From positions 1 through 64,000 of IMG/VR virus record IMGVR_UViG_3300017917_000095: 64,000 nucleotides of DNA; one strand, written 5' to 3'. The notes beneath the pieces are model-generated. The model searched no databases and was not told where the DNA came from. It saw only the letters and a program-made list of their open reading frames with translations. Origin of the DNA: a virus. The position numbers were made by a program, and so were the translations under genes. Numbering within the stretch: the first letter of the stretch is position 1; each line of letters begins with the position of its first letter. Below are positions 1,256 through 7,341 of the stretch, piece by piece.

Positions 1256-4200
1256 TCAAACTCTTGAATTCTGCAATAACTTTTCCTGCGTATCATGTGA
1301 TTCTGATAGTTTATCTTTGATATCAGCTAGAATGCTTACCATTTCTGTCATTGGATCTTCACCTGGGTCTGCACTATTTGCGTTCATTACATTGTCAACT
1401 GTTCGCTGTACTAACACATCTTTTAGTTGACTCAATGCATCCTTGAACTCACCTGTTAACTTTTCCATTGCAGTAGACAAGTCATCGTTATTGTTTTCCA
1501 TGAGTTCTTTTAATCTATCACCCAATATGTCACCTACATCAGCATCAAAGGACTTTGTACCCATCTCTGCACCGGCGATATTGTAGTTTAGACCTATACC
1601 AGAACCCAAAATCTTCTTCCATGCTTCTGGATCAGTAATCGTCTGAGTCTTGTCATCGTATGCACCGATCTTACTAGCCATCTTAGAAATAGCAGTAATG
1701 TCAGTTGACATGGGACCTTGATTATACCCAGTGTATTCATTCATGCCAGCGAATGTCGGACCTGTTTCTTCCGAGAACAGCTTGATTGGATTCTTAGCTA
1801 CACTAGCAATTTGATCGTTAGGAATAACAGTTTCATTACCATGCAACTCAACCATGTATCCTGATTCAGGACCCTCAAAGACGCCGCCGCCTTGTGCTTT
1901 TGGTATCTCGTCTTTCTTAGATTGTGCGGTGGCGACCATTGTACCACCTGATGAAGGTTGAATACCTTGAATGTCTTTAGATCCTGCGTATGCAGTAACC
2001 TTATTCATTACTTCGCCGGCTAGATAACTACCCTTTTTACGAACGTCCCCACCTGCAATCTGACTAGTAGCTAACAAGTTCGCTTGATCTTGGGTCATGT
2101 TCTTTTCATCAATGCCCATAGCACTAGCCATTCGAGACTTGCCCTTCTCCATGTACCATGCTACAACTTCTGCTGCAACCTTAGGATCGTTAACTAAGTC
2201 AGGATCTTTAACTAATCTATCATCACCGAATACTGCTTGTGATGCTTGTGCGTAGTTACTCTTACCGGTAAGCTGAATGTATCCACGACCTCTATACTTG
2301 AATCCATCTCCGGGCTCTGTGTTGCCCATGCTACGACCGATCTTGGTATCCTTACCGTACATGAACTCGCCCATGCCTTCTTCGCTTGACTTGATCTGAT
2401 TGAGTTCTGCATCTGATTTGCCGGCTGCTCTAGATCCAAAGATACTACGAATACGTTCGTTACTAGTCTTACTATAATCTAATTTTTCATTTACAATCTT
2501 ACCACCAGATTCTTTCATGACGTTACCTAACACAGCATTGAGATATTTTTCATCTCCCATGCCACGCTTCATCAATGCGGCTTTAACGTCACCTAAATTC
2601 TGTTTGATATCTTGATCTTTGGATGGTTTCAATCCTGTGCCACCACCCATACCTGCTAAAGGTGGTGCTGACGGTGGTTTAACACCTTGTCCGCTCTCAG
2701 ATGCGGCTTTGCCTCCACCGGCTCCTCCACCTAGTATTCCACCGATATCAGGCATCTTGACACCAGTGCCTCCGGCTGCGCCGCCGGCGGCACCAGTTTC
2801 TTGTGTTACTATCTTTATACTGCTAGCAAATTTTGAAAGATCAATTGAAGCACTGTGGAACACGTTCTTTAGTTTATCTTGAACTGAACCTAAACCTTTA
2901 GCTGCATCTTCTTCTTTGTCTAGCTTGTCTTTTTCTATTTCATCTAACTTGACAATAGAACCTGTCAACTTCTTGAAGATGCCATCAGTATCCTCAATAG
3001 TTTCTTTCAACTGCTTGATTGCTTCACGTTCTTTTTCCAACTCATCTTCATCATCATCGTCAGGAGTTGGTAATGCTGAGGTTTTCATACCAGTACCCAA
3101 CGGTGTAATCATTTCTTTACCGTGCAACTCTACTGGATAACCTGACTTAGGTCCCTCGAACACACCACCAACTGCGGCTTTTGGTGCACTTGGTTTATTG
3201 TCTGGCATGATTCCGGCGCGCATAGCTAGCATCGGATCTATTTGCATTGATTGGCCTAGACCCGCTTTATCAAGAGCAGGTGCACCCATACCACCCAATG
3301 TTTTTAGTGCGGTGGTATCATCAAATTTCTTAACAACTACTGGTATTGGTTCAGCACTCTTTTTATCTTTTCCTACATCTTTATTAAGTTCAGTAGACTT
3401 CTTATCTGCTTTTGCTTCTTGCTTCTTAGTTGATTCGTCTACTTTCTTATCAGCATCAGCGGTCATCTTAGCAATGCTGCCACCCGCAACTTCACCGATT
3501 GCTTTACCGCCCTTGCTACCTAGCCATCCACCCAATGCAGCACCGATGATGCCACCGATAGCAGTTCCCACAACCGGAACGACTGAACCAACTGCTGCAC
3601 CGGCTGCTGCGCCTGCCCATGCGCCGCCCGCGCCGCCTGCTGCGGTACCAACACCACCACCAACTGCTTCGGCTTTGGCTTCTCTATGTTCTTCTTTATT
3701 GATAGTACCTTCTTTGAGGTCTTTATCTGCTTTCTTTATACCCTGATATGCATCAATGACACCATCACCCACTGCCATTACAGTACCAATCATTGGTGCT
3801 GCTTTTGATAACTTAGACAATGGGCCGGCTAGTTTTCCTAATGCTGAAGCAGCAGTTGATGCAGCCGTTGCCGCAGTTCCTGCTCCTGCTGCTCCTGTTG
3901 CCGCGACTGGTGCGGCTGCTGTCGCAGCGGTTGCAGCCGTTGTTGCTACTGGTGCTGCCGCAGTTGCAACTGTAGATGCTACTGGTGCGGCACCTCCTGC
4001 AAGACCAAGACCTTTGGCTGCAGCCTTTACAGCATCTGTACCTTTACCTAATATGCCTGATATTAATTTGTTACCACCTGCGCCTGCAAGACCTATCAAT
4101 GCAGCCGCGGCTGCAGTACCTGCAACGGTCAAGAATGTGAAGCCACCTAGAAGTGGGTTGATTTTACTTGTTAGCTGGTCTAGAGCTTTGCCGGCTTCAA

Positions 4201-5671
4201 TCTCAGCCGTTGTCATCTTAGCTCTCATGTCCTTAGCTGGATCGGCTCCTTCTTTCTTAGCCTTTTCTCTTTCTGCTTTAGACTTCTGCATCTCTGCAGC
4301 CATATCTTTGTCGAGCATCTGACCGTAGTTCTGCATCGACTTCTTATTCATGCCGAATGCTTTTGCAGTTTCATCCGAGAACTTCGCAGCATCACCCTGA
4401 TTCTTGATGGCTTTGTCCATCTGCTGGGTGTACGAGTTCATGAACTTGCCGGCTGTCTCGGTTCCGTCAGCACCCTTCTTCAGTGATTTTTCAAACTGCT
4501 CCATTGGCACGCCCATGCGTGCTAAATACGCACTTTGCTCTGTCCAAGTGCCAGTTGCAAGTCTTGCTTGTGCAGCCGCAGTCAATTGACTATCGCCCAT
4601 TGCTGCAATACCATCTAGGAATTCTTCCCTAGCTTTCATTTCCTTCTTCTTGGCGTCGGCGCCTGCAGTGTCACCTCTAGCCTCAAGAGCCTTAGCTTCT
4701 TGGGCTAACTTAGCTTGAGAGATTTGGAAGTTAACGGCTGCTCTAGCTTCTTGTTGTTGTTTCTTGATATCTTCGGCGTTTTGACCAGTGATGGCACTTA
4801 ATGTCATCAATCTATCAGTGTACTCTAATGATGCACGTTGTAATGCCTGTTTATCCTGTAGTTCACCCTTTAGGCTCTTACCGGTTAGCTGCTGCAACTT
4901 AATATAGTCAGCTTGGTTCTGCATCAATTCTTCTTGACTGACGCCCAAACGCTGATATTGCTCACGTGTTTCGTTTGAAACGGCTGCTAGTTTGGAGAAT
5001 GCTTTGACACCCTCACCTGTTGTTCCACCTAAGCTAGTTAATGCAGGACCTAAACTCTGAATAGGCTTGATAAGGACATCCATGTTCTTACTTGTGACAC
5101 CGGCTTTGTTAGCCATGTCCAGTAACTCTTTAGTTGTGAATGAGCCTGCTGTACCAAACTTAGATAGATTGTCGTTAGCTTTTAATACTGCATCTGCTTG
5201 TTCGGCGTACATGCTACCAAGTTTGGTCAACCCTTGAATGGTCATTCCAACTGCTTTGCCCAATGGACCGAAGTTTTCTGCGGCCTTAGACACTGCACTA
5301 CCTAATGTAGATAGACCTTCGTTGTATTTGGCAAAACTACGACTTGGATCTTGACTGATTAACTTGTTGAATACCTTACCTAAACCATCTGCACCTGTTT
5401 TCAATGACTGAGCAAAGTTTTGCATTGCTTTGTCATATTCTTGGGCAGCTTTCAAATTCTCTTGATATGCCCTAGAGTTTCTATCAACTGCAACGGTGTT
5501 ATCGCCTACAGCTTTTGAGTTCTGCCCAAAAGTATTTCTGAGGTTTAGTCGTTCGATTTCGTCTGGCTTCATTGCTGCCATACGCATTTGGCTATTCATA
5601 GCCAAAGCCTCATTGAGCGATCTAAGTTCTTCGCTTAACTGTTGAAATACTTGTTGAGAATTTTCGTCCAT
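1256..5671 (-). CDS. Tail tape measure protein with a GH19 (chitinase/lysozyme-like) peptidoglycan hydrolase domain
   Basis: Long Ala/Gln/Lys-rich helical N-terminal half, hydrophobic and glycine-zipper segments, and GH19 motifs (NVMKESGG, EKLDYS, GDGFKYRGRGYIQLTGKSNY, DPDLV). Divergent from gp26. The start is more likely ATG 5671 (MDENSQQ) than 5713, because the upstream codons overlap the promoter motifs. Confidence 0.8.
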   Translation of the reverse strand: MDENSQQVFQQLSEELRSLNEALAMNSQMRMAAMKPDEIERLNLRNTFGQNSKAVGDNTVAVDRNSRAYQENLKAAQEYDKAMQNFAQSLKTGADGLGKVFNKLISQDPSRSFAKYNEGLSTLGSAVSKAAENFGPLGKAVGMTIQGLTKLGSMYAEQADAVLKANDNLSKFGTAGSFTTKELLDMANKAGVTSKNMDVLIKPIQSLGPALTSLGGTTGEGVKAFSKLAAVSNETREQYQRLGVSQEELMQNQADYIKLQQLTGKSLKGELQDKQALQRASLEYTDRLMTLSAITGQNAEDIKKQQQEARAAVNFQISQAKLAQEAKALEARGDTAGADAKKKEMKAREEFLDGIAAMGDSQLTAAAQARLATGTWTEQSAYLARMGVPMEQFEKSLKKGADGTETAGKFMNSYTQQMDKAIKNQGDAAKFSDETAKAFGMNKKSMQNYGQMLDKDMAAEMQKSKAEREKAKKEGADPAKDMRAKMTTAEIEAGKALDQLTSKINPLLGGFTFLTVAGTAAAAALIGLAGAGGNKLISGILGKGTDAVKAAAKGLGLAGGAAPVASTVATAAAPVATTAATAATAAAPVAATGAAGAGTAATAASTAASALGKLAGPLSKLSKAAPMIGTVMAVGDGVIDAYQGIKKADKDLKEGTINKEEHREAKAEAVGGGVGTAAGGAGGAWAGAAAGAAVGSVVPVVGTAIGGIIGAALGGWLGSKGGKAIGEVAGGSIAKMTADADKKVDESTKKQEAKADKKSTELNKDVGKDKKSAEPIPVVVKKFDDTTALKTLGGMGAPALDKAGLGQSMQIDPMLAMRAGIMPDNKPSAPKAAVGGVFEGPKSGYPVELHGKEMITPLGTGMKTSALPTPDDDDEDELEKEREAIKQLKETIEDTDGIFKKLTGSIVKLDEIEKDKLDKEEDAAKGLGSVQDKLKNVFHSASIDLSKFASSIKIVTQETGAAGGAAGGTGVKMPDIGGILGGGAGGGKAASESGQGVKPPSAPPLAGMGGGTGLKPSKDQDIKQNLGDVKAALMKRGMGDEKYLNAVLGNVMKESGGKIVNEKLDYSKTSNERIRSIFGSRAAGKSDAELNQIKSSEEGMGEFMYGKDTKIGRSMGNTEPGDGFKYRGRGYIQLTGKSNYAQASQAVFGDDRLVKDPDLVNDPKVAAEVVAWYMEKGKSRMASAMGIDEKNMTQDQANLLATSQIAGGDVRKKGSYLAGEVMNKVTAYAGSKDIQGIQPSSGGTMVATAQSKKDEIPKAQGGGVFEGPESGYMVELHGNETVIPNDQIASVAKNPIKLFSEETGPTFAGMNEYTGYNQGPMSTDITAISKMASKIGAYDDKTQTITDPEAWKKILGSGIGLNYNIAGAEMGTKSFDADVGDILGDRLKELMENNNDDLSTAMEKLTGEFKDALSQLKDVLVQRTVDNVMNANSADPGEDPMTEMVSILADIKDKLSESHDTQEKLLQNSRV

Positions 5672-5682
5672 GGTTTTTACCA

Positions 5683-5704
5683 AATAAATATACTTGTATT
5701 TAGT
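5683..5704. promoter_or_regulatory. Two overlapping, face-to-face late promoters (AATAAATA on +, ACTAAATA on -)
   Basis: AATAAATA at 5683-5690 points to gp26. TATTTAGT at 5697-5704 (ACTAAATA on the minus strand) points to the tape measure gene. Confidence 0.55.
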
Positions 5705-5745
5705 ATTGGGCAAAGACCCAATTTTAACTTAAAGGAAAAAACCCA

Positions 5746-6576
5746 ATGGCACTAGACAATAACCCACTAAAGCAGTATTTCCGTCGTCCTTCTGTATACA
5801 TCAAACTACCTAGCGGAGGTAAATACTACCCAGCGGGAATGATAGATATGCCCGAGAACGGAGAGATCCCAATCTATCCAATGACTGCAATCGATGAGAT
5901 TACTACCAAGACACCTGACGCACTGTACAACGGTACTGCAATGGTAGAATTGATGAAAAGCTGTGTTCCTAATATCAAGGATCCTTGGACTATCAACAGC
6001 ATGGACCTCGATGCTATCTTAATCGGCATTAGGGCAGCAGGTGGTGGTAATGACATGGAAATCGAATCAGCATGTCCTAAGTGCAATGATATCGGTAAGT
6101 ATGGATTGAACCTAATCAATATGTTGAGTCAAATGCGTCCCGGTAACTATGACAAAGAGCTAGAACTTAACGATTTGAAGATCAAATTCAGACCTTTGAC
6201 ATACAAAGAGATGAACGAGGCCAGCATAGGACAGCTTGAAATTCAACGTATTTTCTTCTTGTTAGATCAAGAACCCGATGAAGAAGTTCGCAAGAAACGT
6301 GGTCAAGATGCATTGAAACAAGTCACTGAATTGACTATCAAGTTGTTAACTAGTGCCATTCAGTATATTGAGACACCTACTGTACGTGTAGATACCAAAG
6401 ACTTCATTCAGGATTTCTTGAATAACTGCGATAAGAACATCTATGTAGCCGTGCGTGATTACAACGCGGAATTGAAATCCCAGACTGAAATTAAGCCACT
6501 CAAGATCAAATGCGTACATTGCACTCATGAGTATGAACAACCATTCACATTGAATACATCTGATTTTTTCGCATGA
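5746..6576 (+). CDS. gp26: T4 gp26-like baseplate hub / tail assembly chaperone
   Basis: NNPLKQYFRRP..YIKLPSGGKYY N-terminus, PMTAIDE, two CxxC pairs (CPKC, CVHC) and a C-terminal DFF. AAAGGA RBS upstream. Confidence 0.8.
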   Translation: MALDNNPLKQYFRRPSVYIKLPSGGKYYPAGMIDMPENGEIPIYPMTAIDEITTKTPDALYNGTAMVELMKSCVPNIKDPWTINSMDLDAILIGIRAAGGGNDMEIESACPKCNDIGKYGLNLINMLSQMRPGNYDKELELNDLKIKFRPLTYKEMNEASIGQLEIQRIFFLLDQEPDEEVRKKRGQDALKQVTELTIKLLTSAIQYIETPTVRVDTKDFIQDFLNNCDKNIYVAVRDYNAELKSQTEIKPLKIKCVHCTHEYEQPFTLNTSDFFA

Positions 6577-6612
6577 CGCTTCTCCGCCTTGACCCACAAG
6601 GCATACAGAAGC
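6564..6612 (+). other. Candidate programmed -1 ribosomal frameshift signal (slippery T TTT TTC plus a downstream stem-loop)
   Basis: In-frame GAT TTT TTC at the end of gp26, then a 7-nt spacer, then the hairpin GCTTCT-cc-GCCTTG-accca-CAAGGC-atac-AGAAGC (6578-6612). The next ORF is in the -1 frame. Confidence 0.6.
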
Positions 6613-6800
6613 TTATCGAGGGCTATGAAAAAGCCGTCGAACAAATAAGAAAAAACGCCATGACATTGGCGTGGTACATGCGGGGTGGTGCGACATATGA
6701 AGATGTTCTGAATATGTCCGCTACCGAACGTGATTACCTAAATGAATTAGTAGAAAAGAACTTAGAAGTCACAAAGAAATCAGGACTACCATTCTTCTGA
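6573..6800 (+). CDS. Small gp51-like baseplate hub assembly protein (possible frameshift extension of gp26)
   Basis: 75 aa with ATGA overlap to gp26. The LAWYMRGGATYEDVLNMSATER pattern resembles the small protein that follows gp26 in T4-like phages. No Shine-Dalgarno sequence. Confidence 0.65.
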   Translation: MTLLRLDPQGIQKLIEGYEKAVEQIRKNAMTLAWYMRGGATYEDVLNMSATERDYLNELVEKNLEVTKKSGLPFF

Positions 6801-6842
6801 TCTTCTTTCTTTTATCCATAGCTATTCATTTATCTAATTTTT

Positions 6843-7320
6843 AAACTCATCTGTTCTCTTTAGAAGATGTCCTACGGACATCTAAGAATTCGCTATCGCT
6901 CATTCTTACACTGTTTGAGTTTTCTTTAGAGTTTCTTTCATATCAGGCCTATTGAATTAGTATTGCACTTGAAGCCATGGTAGTGCTATTTTAGCACTAC
7001 CACTGGTAAAGGCTGTCTTGCCCGTCATCCATTGTTATCTTTTCCCCGTAGTGTCAGCTATTTGTGCTACATCTACGCTACCGGTTGCTCTGTAAAGTTT
7101 ATGGGACTGTAGTTAGGTCTGTCAATGATCTTTCAATTGACGCCTTCGCAACGCACATCCTATGACTCAAAGATAAAGTCATCATAGGCTTGTTGAAGGT
7201 TCGCTTTGTCGATTGCCTTCTCGGTATATCCAGAAAAATTAATTTCTGCTGCTCCAGAATCTGACGGCACAGCCGAACTGTACAATCTCAAGGAGAGTCG
7301 AGGTACCCCGACCAAACTAG
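6843..7320 (-). ncRNA. Putative large structured non-coding RNA or replication-origin element (family unknown)
   Basis: Only long ORF-free gap in the window, with at least 8 stem-loops (6865-6883, 6884-6907, 6978-7002, 7047-7078, 7121-7141, 7143-7199, 7231-7248, 7297-7312). Two stems contain G-U pairs only on the minus strand. Boundaries are approximate. Confidence 0.55.
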
Positions 7321-7341
7321 TTTAACGATAAAGTGCGTTTC

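What the first reader, a model, noticed from the sequence alone, without database searches (positions are those of the whole stretch)
6564..6612. Canonical -1 frameshift cassette joining gp26 to the gp51-like ORF (lambda G/GT-style chaperone pair in a T4-like phage)
Seen: gp26 ends GAT TTT TTC GCA TGA, giving an X XXY YYZ heptamer (T TTT TTC, 6564-6570) in the correct phase. Exactly 7 nt later a 12-bp interrupted hairpin begins (GCTTCT/AGAAGC plus GCCTTG/CAAGGC). The downstream 75-aa ORF is in the -1 frame, is open from the slip site (..DFF-R-MTLLR..) and has no Shine-Dalgarno. Known: tail-assembly chaperone genes next to tape-measure genes often make G and GT products by -1 frameshifting, and the tape measure gene is the divergent neighbour here. 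Inference: a fusion of about 351 aa is made alongside the 276-aa protein. I am not aware of this being a standard annotation for gp26/gp51.
Basis: partly seen in the sequence, partly recalled or inferred. Interest (0 to 1): 0.8.

Follow-up and report, generated by a model that had tools for sequence, protein, structure and literature searches.

The report
Frameshift site in phage tail-chaperone gene
One tail-assembly gene of this uncultured giant T4-related phage very probably makes a 276-residue and a 351-residue protein because some ribosomes slip back one base on an invariant TTTTTTC followed by an RNA hairpin. This is a solid example of a trick apparently already published in 2022 for T4-like phages.

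Summary
T_TTT_TTC (6564-6570) lies in X_XXY_YYZ phase at the end of a gp26-family gene (PF12322). A two-part hairpin starts 7 nt later, and the -1 frame is open from the slip site for 78 codons.

Comparative evidence strongly supports a programmed -1 frameshift:
- All 78 distinct related junctions keep TTTTTTC+G.
- The two Phe codons are the only 2 of 58 invariant-residue columns with an invariant codon.
- 67 of 78 junctions have no start codon near the site.
- The hairpin shows compensatory changes.
- Six cultured jumbo phages (Atu_ph07, PA5oct, Serratia BF, XacN1, BF17, Phosso) have the same cassette, un-annotated.

Some relatives encode the long form in frame. Those relatives, like T4 (genes 26 and 51), carry a second, short paralogue. 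Frameshift-type genomes carry one gene.

The extension probably corresponds to the C-terminal tail of gp51, not to gp51 as a whole.

Papers citing Vladimirov, Gautam and Davidson (Virology 2022; not readable here) indicate that the gp26/gp51 chaperone pair and poly-T slip signals in T4-like phages are already in print. This scan has also noted the same thing 83 times, in at least 79 other genomes. The verdict is a real new member of a known kind, of modest interest.

The parts
5746..6576 (+). Zero-frame gene for the short form (276 aa), a gp26-family protein (PF12322, T4_baseplate) with two CxxC knuckles, ending ..SDFFA*
   Evidence: Pfam 58.4 bits against a cut-off of 24.5. phrog_150 baseplate hub. 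Four invariant Cys residues.
6564..6570 (+). Slippery heptamer T_TTT_TTC in X_XXY_YYZ phase, on the conserved Phe-Phe
   Evidence: Invariant in 78 of 78 distinct junctions. These are the only invariant codons among 58 invariant-residue columns.
6571..6577 (+). 7-nt spacer. It holds the last zero-frame sense codon (GCA) and the zero-frame stop TGA (6574-6576). ATG 6573-6575 overlaps that stop.
   Evidence: In relatives the zero-frame stop lies 1, 3 or 4 codons after the heptamer.
6578..6612 (+). Two-part stimulatory hairpin: outer stem 6578-6583 with 6607-6612, inner stem 6586-6591 with 6597-6602, loop 6592-6596
   Evidence: MFE -16.2 kcal/mol, z = -4.3. 88.5% of cells paired, 5 pairs with compensatory changes, slid controls 60% or less. 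More stable than synonymous recodings, mean z = -3.0.
6564..6800 (+). -1 frame extension: 78 codons counted from the FF (FFRMTLLRLDPQG...WYMRGG...KKSGLPFF) plus the stop TGA at 6798-6800. Together with 5746-6570 it gives the 351-aa long form.
   Evidence: The profile finds 394 relatives, including in-frame fusions. Helical model. In the in-frame homologue it packs at high confidence, pLDDT 95.7, pTM 0.89.
1256..5713 (-). Context: divergently transcribed 1485-aa tape-measure-like protein with a GH19/lysozyme-like domain, the presumed client of the chaperone
   Evidence: phrog_167 and phrog_794 tape measure, phrog_181 endolysin. PF00182.

Best explanation
This is a programmed -1 ribosomal frameshift. 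Most ribosomes read the gp26-family gene to its stop at 6574-6576 and make the 276-aa short form. A fraction pause over U_UUU_UUC (6564-6570) against the hairpin 7 nt downstream. Both tRNA-Phe re-pair one base back, and translation continues in the -1 frame through 76 further codons to 6800. The result is a 351-aa long form with the same N-terminal 275 residues plus a helical C-terminal domain.

By homology with T4 gp26 (short) and gp51 (long), the two forms are the tail assembly chaperone pair (TAC-N / TAC-NC). They act on the hub and tape-measure stage of tail assembly.

Shown here: the cassette, its conservation, the lack of a start codon in most homologues, the natural in-frame fusions, and the complementary gene-copy pattern.

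Inferred: that slippage actually occurs, its efficiency, and the chaperone function.
For: Conservation of the slip site
- All 33 close loci keep GAT/AGT TTT TTC G in phase, with a 78-aa -1 extension conserved from the very first residues.
- Across 107 loci, 106 have this architecture. All 78 distinct junctions have TTTTTTC followed by G.
- Of 58 alignment columns with an invariant degenerate residue, only the TTT and TTC of the heptamer have an invariant codon.

No independent start
- Only 11 of 78 junctions have ATG/GTG/TTG within 5 codons of the site. In 53 of 78 the first start lies more than 15 codons in.
- Residue 4 of the extension, M in the window, is I/L/M/Q/A and others in relatives.

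Hairpin
- 88.5% of cells are paired, 5 pairs carry compensatory changes, and slid controls reach 60% or less.
- The native sequence is more stable than synonymous recodings, with mean z = -3.0 over 28 sequences.

Distant relatives
- Atu_ph07, PA5oct, Serratia BF, XacN1, BF17 and Phosso are about 30% identical, yet all keep T_TTT_TT(C/T) in phase and a 73-81 aa -1 extension.

Fusion is functional
- About 20 cluster representatives of 319-351 aa, and 7 IMG/VR loci, encode N-domain plus extension in one frame. Their junction reads ..FR.KLI.. on non-slippery DNA.
- The AlphaFold2 model of one of these has pLDDT 95.7 and pTM 0.89, including the extension.

Two forms are needed
- Four complete frameshift-type genomes have one PF12322 gene each.
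- T4 has two.
- All five in-frame-long contigs have two adjacent ones.

Link to T4
- T4 gp26 and gp51 are colinear paralogues (BLASTP E = 2e-6), and both match PF12322 over its full length.
- T4 gp26 ends EFFELL with non-slippery TTC TTT codons.
Against: - There is no direct evidence of the transframe protein: no mass spectrometry, reporter assay or ribosome profiling.
- In this window an ATG overlaps the stop (ATGA), so coupled re-initiation could also yield a free 75-aa peptide.
- The G after the heptamer, and part of the stem, are also constrained by the -1 frame coding sequence (Arg, Leu-Leu, Lys-Leu).
- The hairpin is not universal. Serratia BF and BF17 show none above the recoded controls. 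In the wider set the 50-nt MFE ranges from -0.8 to -22.3 kcal/mol.
- Homology of the extension to the gp51 tail is only moderate (hhalign probability 31-56%).
- The chaperone role rests on T4 genetics and on a paper I could not read.
Confidence: 0.88

Rival explanations
1. There is no frameshift. The downstream ORF is a separate 75-aa protein, started at ATG 6573 by termination-reinitiation coupling at the ATGA overlap.
For: The window has ATG 6573 overlapping the TGA stop. 11 of 78 junctions have a start within 5 codons. GenBank records of BF17, Serratia BF and Phosso annotate it this way.
Against: 67 of 78 junctions lack such a start, yet the peptide is conserved from the FF onward. There is no Shine-Dalgarno sequence. 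This reading leaves the heptamer codon invariance unexplained. In-frame fusions exist. Gene callers give ragged N-termini for the free ORF.
Confidence: 0.05
2. The long form arises by transcriptional slippage. RNA polymerase adds one U in the T6 run, which gives an mRNA that encodes the same 351-aa protein.
For: A homopolymeric T run is present and conserved. One extra U gives exactly the same protein sequence as a -1 ribosomal slip (read).
Against: From general knowledge, efficient polymerase slippage usually needs runs of about 8-9 or more, and here the run is fixed at 6 (7 only in XacN1). The conserved hairpin at 5-7 nt, with compensatory changes, is the hallmark of ribosomal rather than polymerase slippage.
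Confidence: 0.05
3. The split is an artefact or a decayed gene: a homopolymer sequencing error or a pseudogenised in-frame long gene.
For: Homopolymer runs are prone to errors. In-frame long versions exist in relatives.
Against: The same split occurs in 106 independent metagenomic loci and in six finished genomes of cultured phages from different laboratories. The in-frame versions have a different, non-slippery junction. Both frames are under purifying selection.
Confidence: 0.02

Closest known systems
T4 gp26 (208 aa) and gp51 (249 aa). These are hub assembly chaperones (Leiman et al. 2010, PMC3004832, Table 2), identified as the TAC-N / TAC-NC pair of T4-like phages by Vladimirov, Gautam and Davidson, Virology 2022, 566:9-15. 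That paper is known here only through citing texts (PMC10274946, PMC12846349).
   Same: - The N-domain belongs to the same family: PF12322 scores 58 bits for the window, and T4 gp26 and gp51 both match over the full length of the model.
- The domain has the same Phe-Phe end.
- The logic is the same: a short form, and a long form with a C-terminal tail.
- The gene is divergent from the tape-measure gene cluster, as T4 gene 26 is.
- The extension aligns colinearly with the gp51 tail.
   Different: - T4 uses two separate paralogous genes and non-slippery TTC TTT codons.
- This phage has one gene plus a -1 frameshift.
- The extension here is 76 aa against about 48 aa in gp51.
- The N-domain is about 70 residues longer.
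- The homology of the tails is only moderately supported.
Lambda gpG / gpGT, and the conserved -1 frameshift of tail assembly chaperone genes in long-tailed phages (Levin et al. 1993; Xu, Hendrix and Duda 2004; cited from my own knowledge)
   Same: - Two products share an N-terminus.
[quoted passage not shown]
- The gene lies next to the tape measure gene.
   Different: - No sequence family is shared with gpG (Pfam finds only PF12322).
- The gene is divergent from the tape measure gene, not directly upstream of it.
- Here a clear downstream hairpin is conserved. From memory, lambda G/GT needs no such stimulator.
P2 gpE / gpE+E' (myovirus tail chaperone frameshift; from my own knowledge) and the Pakpunavirus TAC-N/TAC-NC GTTTTT site (PMC12846349)
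   Same: Contractile-tailed phages in which a poly-T slip site joins TAC-N to a downstream ORF that is routinely mis-annotated as a separate hypothetical gene.
   Different: Different protein families. The site here is a full seven-base U_UUU_UUC with a hairpin.
E. coli dnaX A_AAA_AAG frameshift (from my own knowledge)
   Same: A bacterial-type -1 frameshift driven by a heptamer plus a stem-loop about 6 nt downstream.
   Different: In dnaX the shifted frame ends almost at once, giving a shorter product, and an upstream Shine-Dalgarno-like stimulator is used. Here the shift lengthens the protein, and no upstream Shine-Dalgarno-like element is seen.

Membership tests
Programmed -1 ribosomal frameshift cassette | X_XXY_YYZ slippery heptamer in the zero-frame phase | tested here: met
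   T_TTT_TTC at 6564-6570. Invariant in 78 of 78 distinct junctions. Codon invariance is unique among 58 columns.
Programmed -1 ribosomal frameshift cassette | Downstream RNA structure at a 5-9 nt spacing, maintained by selection | tested here: met
   Hairpin at +7 nt with z = -4.3. 5 pairs with compensatory changes and 88.5% of cells paired, against 60% or less for slid controls. Mean z = -3.0 against synonymous recoding. Not seen in Serratia BF or BF17.
Programmed -1 ribosomal frameshift cassette | -1 frame open from the slip site, with a conserved peptide and no start codon of its own | tested here: met
   the extension is 78-79 aa, and 67 of 78 junctions have no start within 5 codons.
Programmed -1 ribosomal frameshift cassette | Transframe protein actually produced | not testable with these tools
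   This needs mass spectrometry, a reporter assay or ribosome profiling. The only indirect support is the natural in-frame fusions.
PF12322 T4_baseplate (gp26/gp51 family) | Profile match above Pfam's gathering score | tested here: met
   58.4 bits against 24.5, residues 33-275 on profile positions 14-218. 57.9 bits in the genome search.
PF12322 T4_baseplate (gp26/gp51 family) | Two CxxC knuckles, and a domain end at the Phe-Phe motif | tested here: met
   Four invariant Cys columns and an invariant FF. T4 gp26 has CTC, CPEC and a terminal EFFELL.
Tail assembly chaperone pair (TAC-N / TAC-NC) | Short and long forms sharing the N-terminal domain, with both needed | tested here: met
   At the sequence level only. 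Frameshift-type genomes have one gene, while T4 and the in-frame-long phages have two. On the tree, two-gene states are nested among frameshift types.
Tail assembly chaperone pair (TAC-N / TAC-NC) | Gene lies directly upstream of, and co-oriented with, the tape measure gene | tested here: not met
   The gene is adjacent to a tape-measure-like gene (1256-5713) but divergent from it. T4 gene 26 has the same orientation relative to genes 51-27-28-29. This is the T4-type layout, not the lambda-type layout.
Tail assembly chaperone pair (TAC-N / TAC-NC) | Binds the tape measure and tube proteins, is required for tail assembly, and is absent from virions | not testable with these tools
   Only a hint is available. 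The PA5oct RefSeq notes mark neighbouring genes 'ESI-MS/MS' but not the gp26-like gene, whereas the CBB homologue is labelled 'structural protein'.
gp51 C-terminal tail (PF28602 in a newer Pfam release) | Profile match of the extension to the gp51 tail | tested here: inconclusive
   PF28602 is listed for gp51 homologues but is absent from the local Pfam copy. hhalign of the extension profile against the gp51-tail profile gives probability 56%, E = 1e-4. A wider colinear alignment of 59-78 columns gives probability 31%, E = 5e-4.
Known TAC folds in the PDB | Structural similarity to a solved tail assembly chaperone | tested here: inconclusive
   Foldseek gives nothing at E <= 0.001. With VIA-align the best Z is 7.0, on helical hairpins only. 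B. subtilis YqbN (3klu), which from memory is an XkdN-like tail chaperone, appears at Z = 6.0 with 84 residues aligned, within the noise band.

The most novel reading that the evidence does not exclude
The 2022 paper may cover only classical T4-like phages. In that case this cassette would show that the whole Rak2 / PA5oct / Atu_ph07-type jumbo-phage radiation, plus hundreds of uncultured relatives, makes its tail chaperone pair by one of the most strictly conserved frameshift sites known in phages (UUUUUUC-G, invariant down to about 30% protein identity). The frameshift would then be the ancestral state, replaced by gene duplication at least two or three separate times, including in the line leading to T4.
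Probability: 0.35. Interest if true: 0.45.

Novelty: new member of a known kind. Interest (0 to 1): 0.3.

Why it matters
- Annotation: the site corrects the annotation of a core tail-assembly gene in a large group of jumbo phages. In RefSeq records the extension is a separate hypothetical ORF, a truncated ORF (Atu_ph07), or missing altogether (PA5oct).
- Comparative evidence: frameshift and gene duplication appear as interchangeable ways of making a short and a long chaperone.
- Experimental material: the site is a very well conserved bacterial-type -1 frameshift signal, with a covarying hairpin, that could be tested in cultured relatives.
- Limit: it does not add a new principle.

Tried and rejected
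- blastn of the locus against the phage collection found no match.
- The extension hits no Pfam or PHROGs family.
- hhalign of the extension against single full-length T4 sequences gave only spurious low-probability hits: gp51 residues 32-64 at 3%, and gp28 at 0.7%. A sensible colinear match to the gp51 tail appeared only with family profiles.
- Profile against profile, the fused jumbo forms and the gp51 family gave only 52% probability on the N-domain. N-domain homology therefore rests on the shared Pfam model.
- Fold searches with the extension alone and with the long form found no convincing solved relative.
P0055 alone matched nothing; the alignment worked.
- The primary paper (Vladimirov et al. 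2022) is not held. Papers on the jumbo-phage clade contain no occurrence of 'frameshift'.
- Heptamer enrichment in the window was tested and there is none.
- Sequencing runs were not searched, because RNA reads cannot show a ribosomal slip.

Full report
**What is in the window**

ORF1 (5746-6576, + strand, 276 aa) ends GAT TTT TTC GCA TGA. T_TTT_TTC therefore sits at 6564-6570 in X_XXY_YYZ phase.

Seven bases later a two-part hairpin begins. GCTTCT (6578-6583) pairs with AGAAGC (6607-6612), and GCCTTG (6586-6591) pairs with CAAGGC (6597-6602). Its MFE is -16.2 kcal/mol, z = -4.3, and none of 200 dinucleotide shuffles folds as well.

ORF2 (6573-6800, 75 aa) is in the -1 frame, and its ATG overlaps the TGA stop. 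That frame is open from the slip site (FFRMTLLR...), and no Shine-Dalgarno-like sequence precedes the ATG. The predicted fusion is 275 + 76 = 351 aa.

The heptamer by itself is not unusual. It occurs 6 times in the window against 13.5 expected.

**Identity and setting**

ORF1 is a member of Pfam PF12322 (T4_baseplate, the gp26 family; 58.4 bits against a cut-off of 24.5) and of phrog_150, baseplate hub. ORF2 matches no family.

The divergent neighbour (1256-5713, - strand, 1485 aa) matches tape-measure PHROGs and has a GH19/lysozyme-like domain.

The window is part of an 84.9-kb IMG/VR contig estimated at 15% of a genome, so this is a jumbo phage. Its cultured relatives, at about 30% identity, are Atu_ph07, PA5oct, Phosso, and the Rak2/121Q-like, Eneladusvirus and XacN1 groups.

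**Conservation of the slip site**

- All 33 close IMG/VR loci (47-87% identity) keep GAT or AGT TTT TTC G in phase. Each has a -1 extension of exactly 78 residues, conserved from its first residues.
- A second scan seeded on the extension motif hit more than 600 stretches and returned 80 loci. Of these, 73 are the frameshift type and 7 are in frame.
- Over 107 loci, 106 have the architecture. All 78 distinct junctions read TTTTTTC followed by G. The zero-frame stop lies 1, 3 or 4 codons later, and the extension is 78-79 aa.
- In a codon alignment of 21 distinct ORF1 genes, 58 columns have an invariant residue with synonymous choices. Only two of them have an invariant codon, and these are the TTT and TTC of the heptamer.
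- Six cultured jumbo phages keep T_TTT_TT(C/T) in phase on the same Phe-Phe, with -1 extensions of 73-81 aa. Their records annotate the extension as a separate hypothetical ORF, as a truncated ORF (Atu_ph07), or not at all (PA5oct).

**No independent start**

- Residue 4 of the extension, the Met of the window's ORF2, is I, L, M, Q, A, S, T or V in relatives.
- Only 11 of 78 junctions have any ATG/GTG/TTG within five codons of the site. In 53 of 78 the first start is more than 15 codons in, downstream of conserved residues.
- Gene callers accordingly give the free ORF ragged N-termini in public protein sets.

**The hairpin**

- On 21 distinct sequences the proposed structure has 88.5% of cells paired. 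Five pairs carry compensatory double changes (13 cells). Controls with the partner slid by 1-3 columns reach at most 60%.
- The inner helix shifts register in some lineages but is still formed.
- Against synonymous recodings of the -1 frame, the native sequences are more stable in 26 of 28 cases, with mean z = -3.0.
- PA5oct, XacN1, Phosso and Atu_ph07 have unrelated sequences that still form a stem starting 6-9 nt after the heptamer. Serratia BF and BF17 do not stand out.
- In the wider set the 50-nt MFE ranges from -0.8 to -22.3 kcal/mol. The stimulator is therefore well supported in the window's own subclade but is not universal.

**The fusion is a real protein**

A profile of the extension found 394 relatives among 1.8 billion cluster representatives. 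About 20 of the best 150 are 319-351 aa proteins with the extension at their C-terminus. All of those tested have PF12322 at the N-terminus.

Their junction reads ..D.S..FR.KLI.. on non-slippery DNA such as CAA TTT CGC. They are therefore natural in-frame versions, not homopolymer errors.

An AlphaFold2 model of one of them has mean pLDDT 95.7 and pTM 0.89, with the extension at pLDDT 89-97. Alone, the extension models as three helices at pLDDT 75.

**Two forms are needed**

- Complete genomes of the frameshift type (Atu_ph07, PA5oct, Serratia BF, BF17) each hold one PF12322 gene. T4 holds two, genes 26 and 51.
- All five contigs with an in-frame long gene hold a second, adjacent PF12322 paralogue without the extension. 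One example is L049, with a 350-aa long gene followed by a 283-aa gene that ends just after the second CxxC.
- On a maximum-likelihood tree of the N-domains, the two-gene states lie in at least three places. Two of these are nested among frameshift types, one inside the window's own subclade at 99/97 support.
- That tree is unrooted, and the T4 branches are very long. The direction of change is therefore inferred, not shown.

**Relation to T4**

- T4 gp26 (208 aa) ends ..KEFFELL, with the Phe-Phe coded by the non-slippery TTC TTT, and is followed by gene 25.
- T4 gp26 and gp51 are colinear paralogues (BLASTP E = 2e-6 over 161 residues). gp51 matches PF12322 over residues 1-201 (E = 4e-52) and then has a 48-residue tail. 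A newer Pfam release models that tail as PF28602.
- The profile of the window's extension aligns with a profile of that tail at hhalign probability 56%, E = 1e-4.
- A wider comparison gives a colinear alignment running from the second zinc knuckle, through F-(R/K)-LL-x-P-(D/E)-E-I, to S..ER..I..IE. Its probability is 31%, E = 5e-4.
- I therefore take the 351-aa product, not ORF2 alone, to be the counterpart of gp51. This is probable but not proven.
- Leiman et al. 2010 list gp26 and gp51 as hub assembly chaperones (PMC3004832).

**What is already known**

My own searches found no paper on a gp26 frameshift. Papers on this jumbo-phage clade never use the word 'frameshift'.

Earlier notes of this scan led me to Vladimirov, Gautam and Davidson, Virology 2022. 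The same finding has been noted 83 times in at least 79 genomes. The paper itself is not held.

Two citing papers describe its content. One says that some T4-like phages carry a short gene and a longer fusion gene instead of frameshifting (PMC10274946). The other says that poly-T sequences are known -1 signals in TAC-N genes of T4-like phages (PMC12846349).

The principle is therefore in print. I could not check whether the jumbo clade is covered.

**Mechanism and rivals**

| Reading | Confidence |
|---|---|
| -1 ribosomal slip on U_UUU_UUC, stimulated by the hairpin, giving TAC-N (276 aa) and TAC-NC (351 aa) | 0.88 |
| Coupled re-initiation at the ATGA overlap as the sole mechanism | about 0.05 |
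| Transcriptional slippage on the T run | about 0.05 |
| Artefact or pseudogene | about 0.02 |

Re-initiation may add a free peptide in this particular phage, but it cannot explain the family. Transcriptional slippage would give the same protein, but a run of six is short and the covarying hairpin points to the ribosome. An artefact or pseudogene is excluded by 106 independent loci and six finished genomes.

**Verdict**

This is a new member of a known kind. Interest is modest. The practical value is a missing annotation across jumbo phages and a clean comparative case for frameshift and duplication as alternatives.

Noticed in passing
window 6801-7341: The gene-free stretch directly after the extension's stop was already reported by this scan as a large structured non-coding RNA on the minus strand (e1-6064875). 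In PA5oct, Serratia BF, BF17 and CBB a long un-annotated gap likewise follows the gp26-like locus, before an endonuclease VII or resolvase gene.
   Followed up: no
L037 6106-6228 (Atu_ph07), L038 6850-7072 (PA5oct): In the RefSeq records the extension is mis-annotated. In Atu_ph07 only the last 40 codons are called as a hypothetical protein. In PA5oct nothing is annotated, although a 75-codon -1 frame is open from the heptamer.
   Followed up: yes
L049 3878-5800; L044 2961-4960; L045, L047, L048: Relatives with an in-frame long gene carry a second paralogue next to it. In L049 this is a 283-aa short form with both CxxC knuckles, lying downstream. In L044, L045, L047 and L048 it is a 305-335 aa divergent paralogue with no CxxC and a different C-terminus (..AGAP..W..FMGSSF..), lying upstream. 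Its role as the 'short form' is assumed, not shown.
   Followed up: partly
window, both strands: TTTTTTC is under-represented: 6 copies against 13.5 expected, and 99 of 100 shuffles have at least 6. The frameshift site is the only copy on the + strand, which carries most genes here. This may reflect avoidance of accidental slip sites.
   Followed up: no
window 1256-5713 (-): The tape-measure-like neighbour is 1485 aa and carries an internal GH19 chitinase / lysozyme-like domain (residues about 1036-1225) behind the tape-measure-like region.
   Followed up: no
model macddf4c6cd85 residues 97-216: There is a weak structural match to B. subtilis prophage protein YqbN (3klu; Z = 6.0, 84 of 119 residues, rmsd 3.1). 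From memory, YqbN is an XkdN-like tail assembly chaperone. The match lies within the noise band of helical hits, so it is only a lead.
   Followed up: no
L124 2989-3846 (phage CBB) versus L038 5995-6849 (PA5oct): The CBB homologue is labelled 'structural protein'. In PA5oct, by contrast, the neighbouring genes carry the 'ESI-MS/MS' note but the gp26-like gene does not. Whether this chaperone-family protein stays in the virion is unsettled.
   Followed up: no
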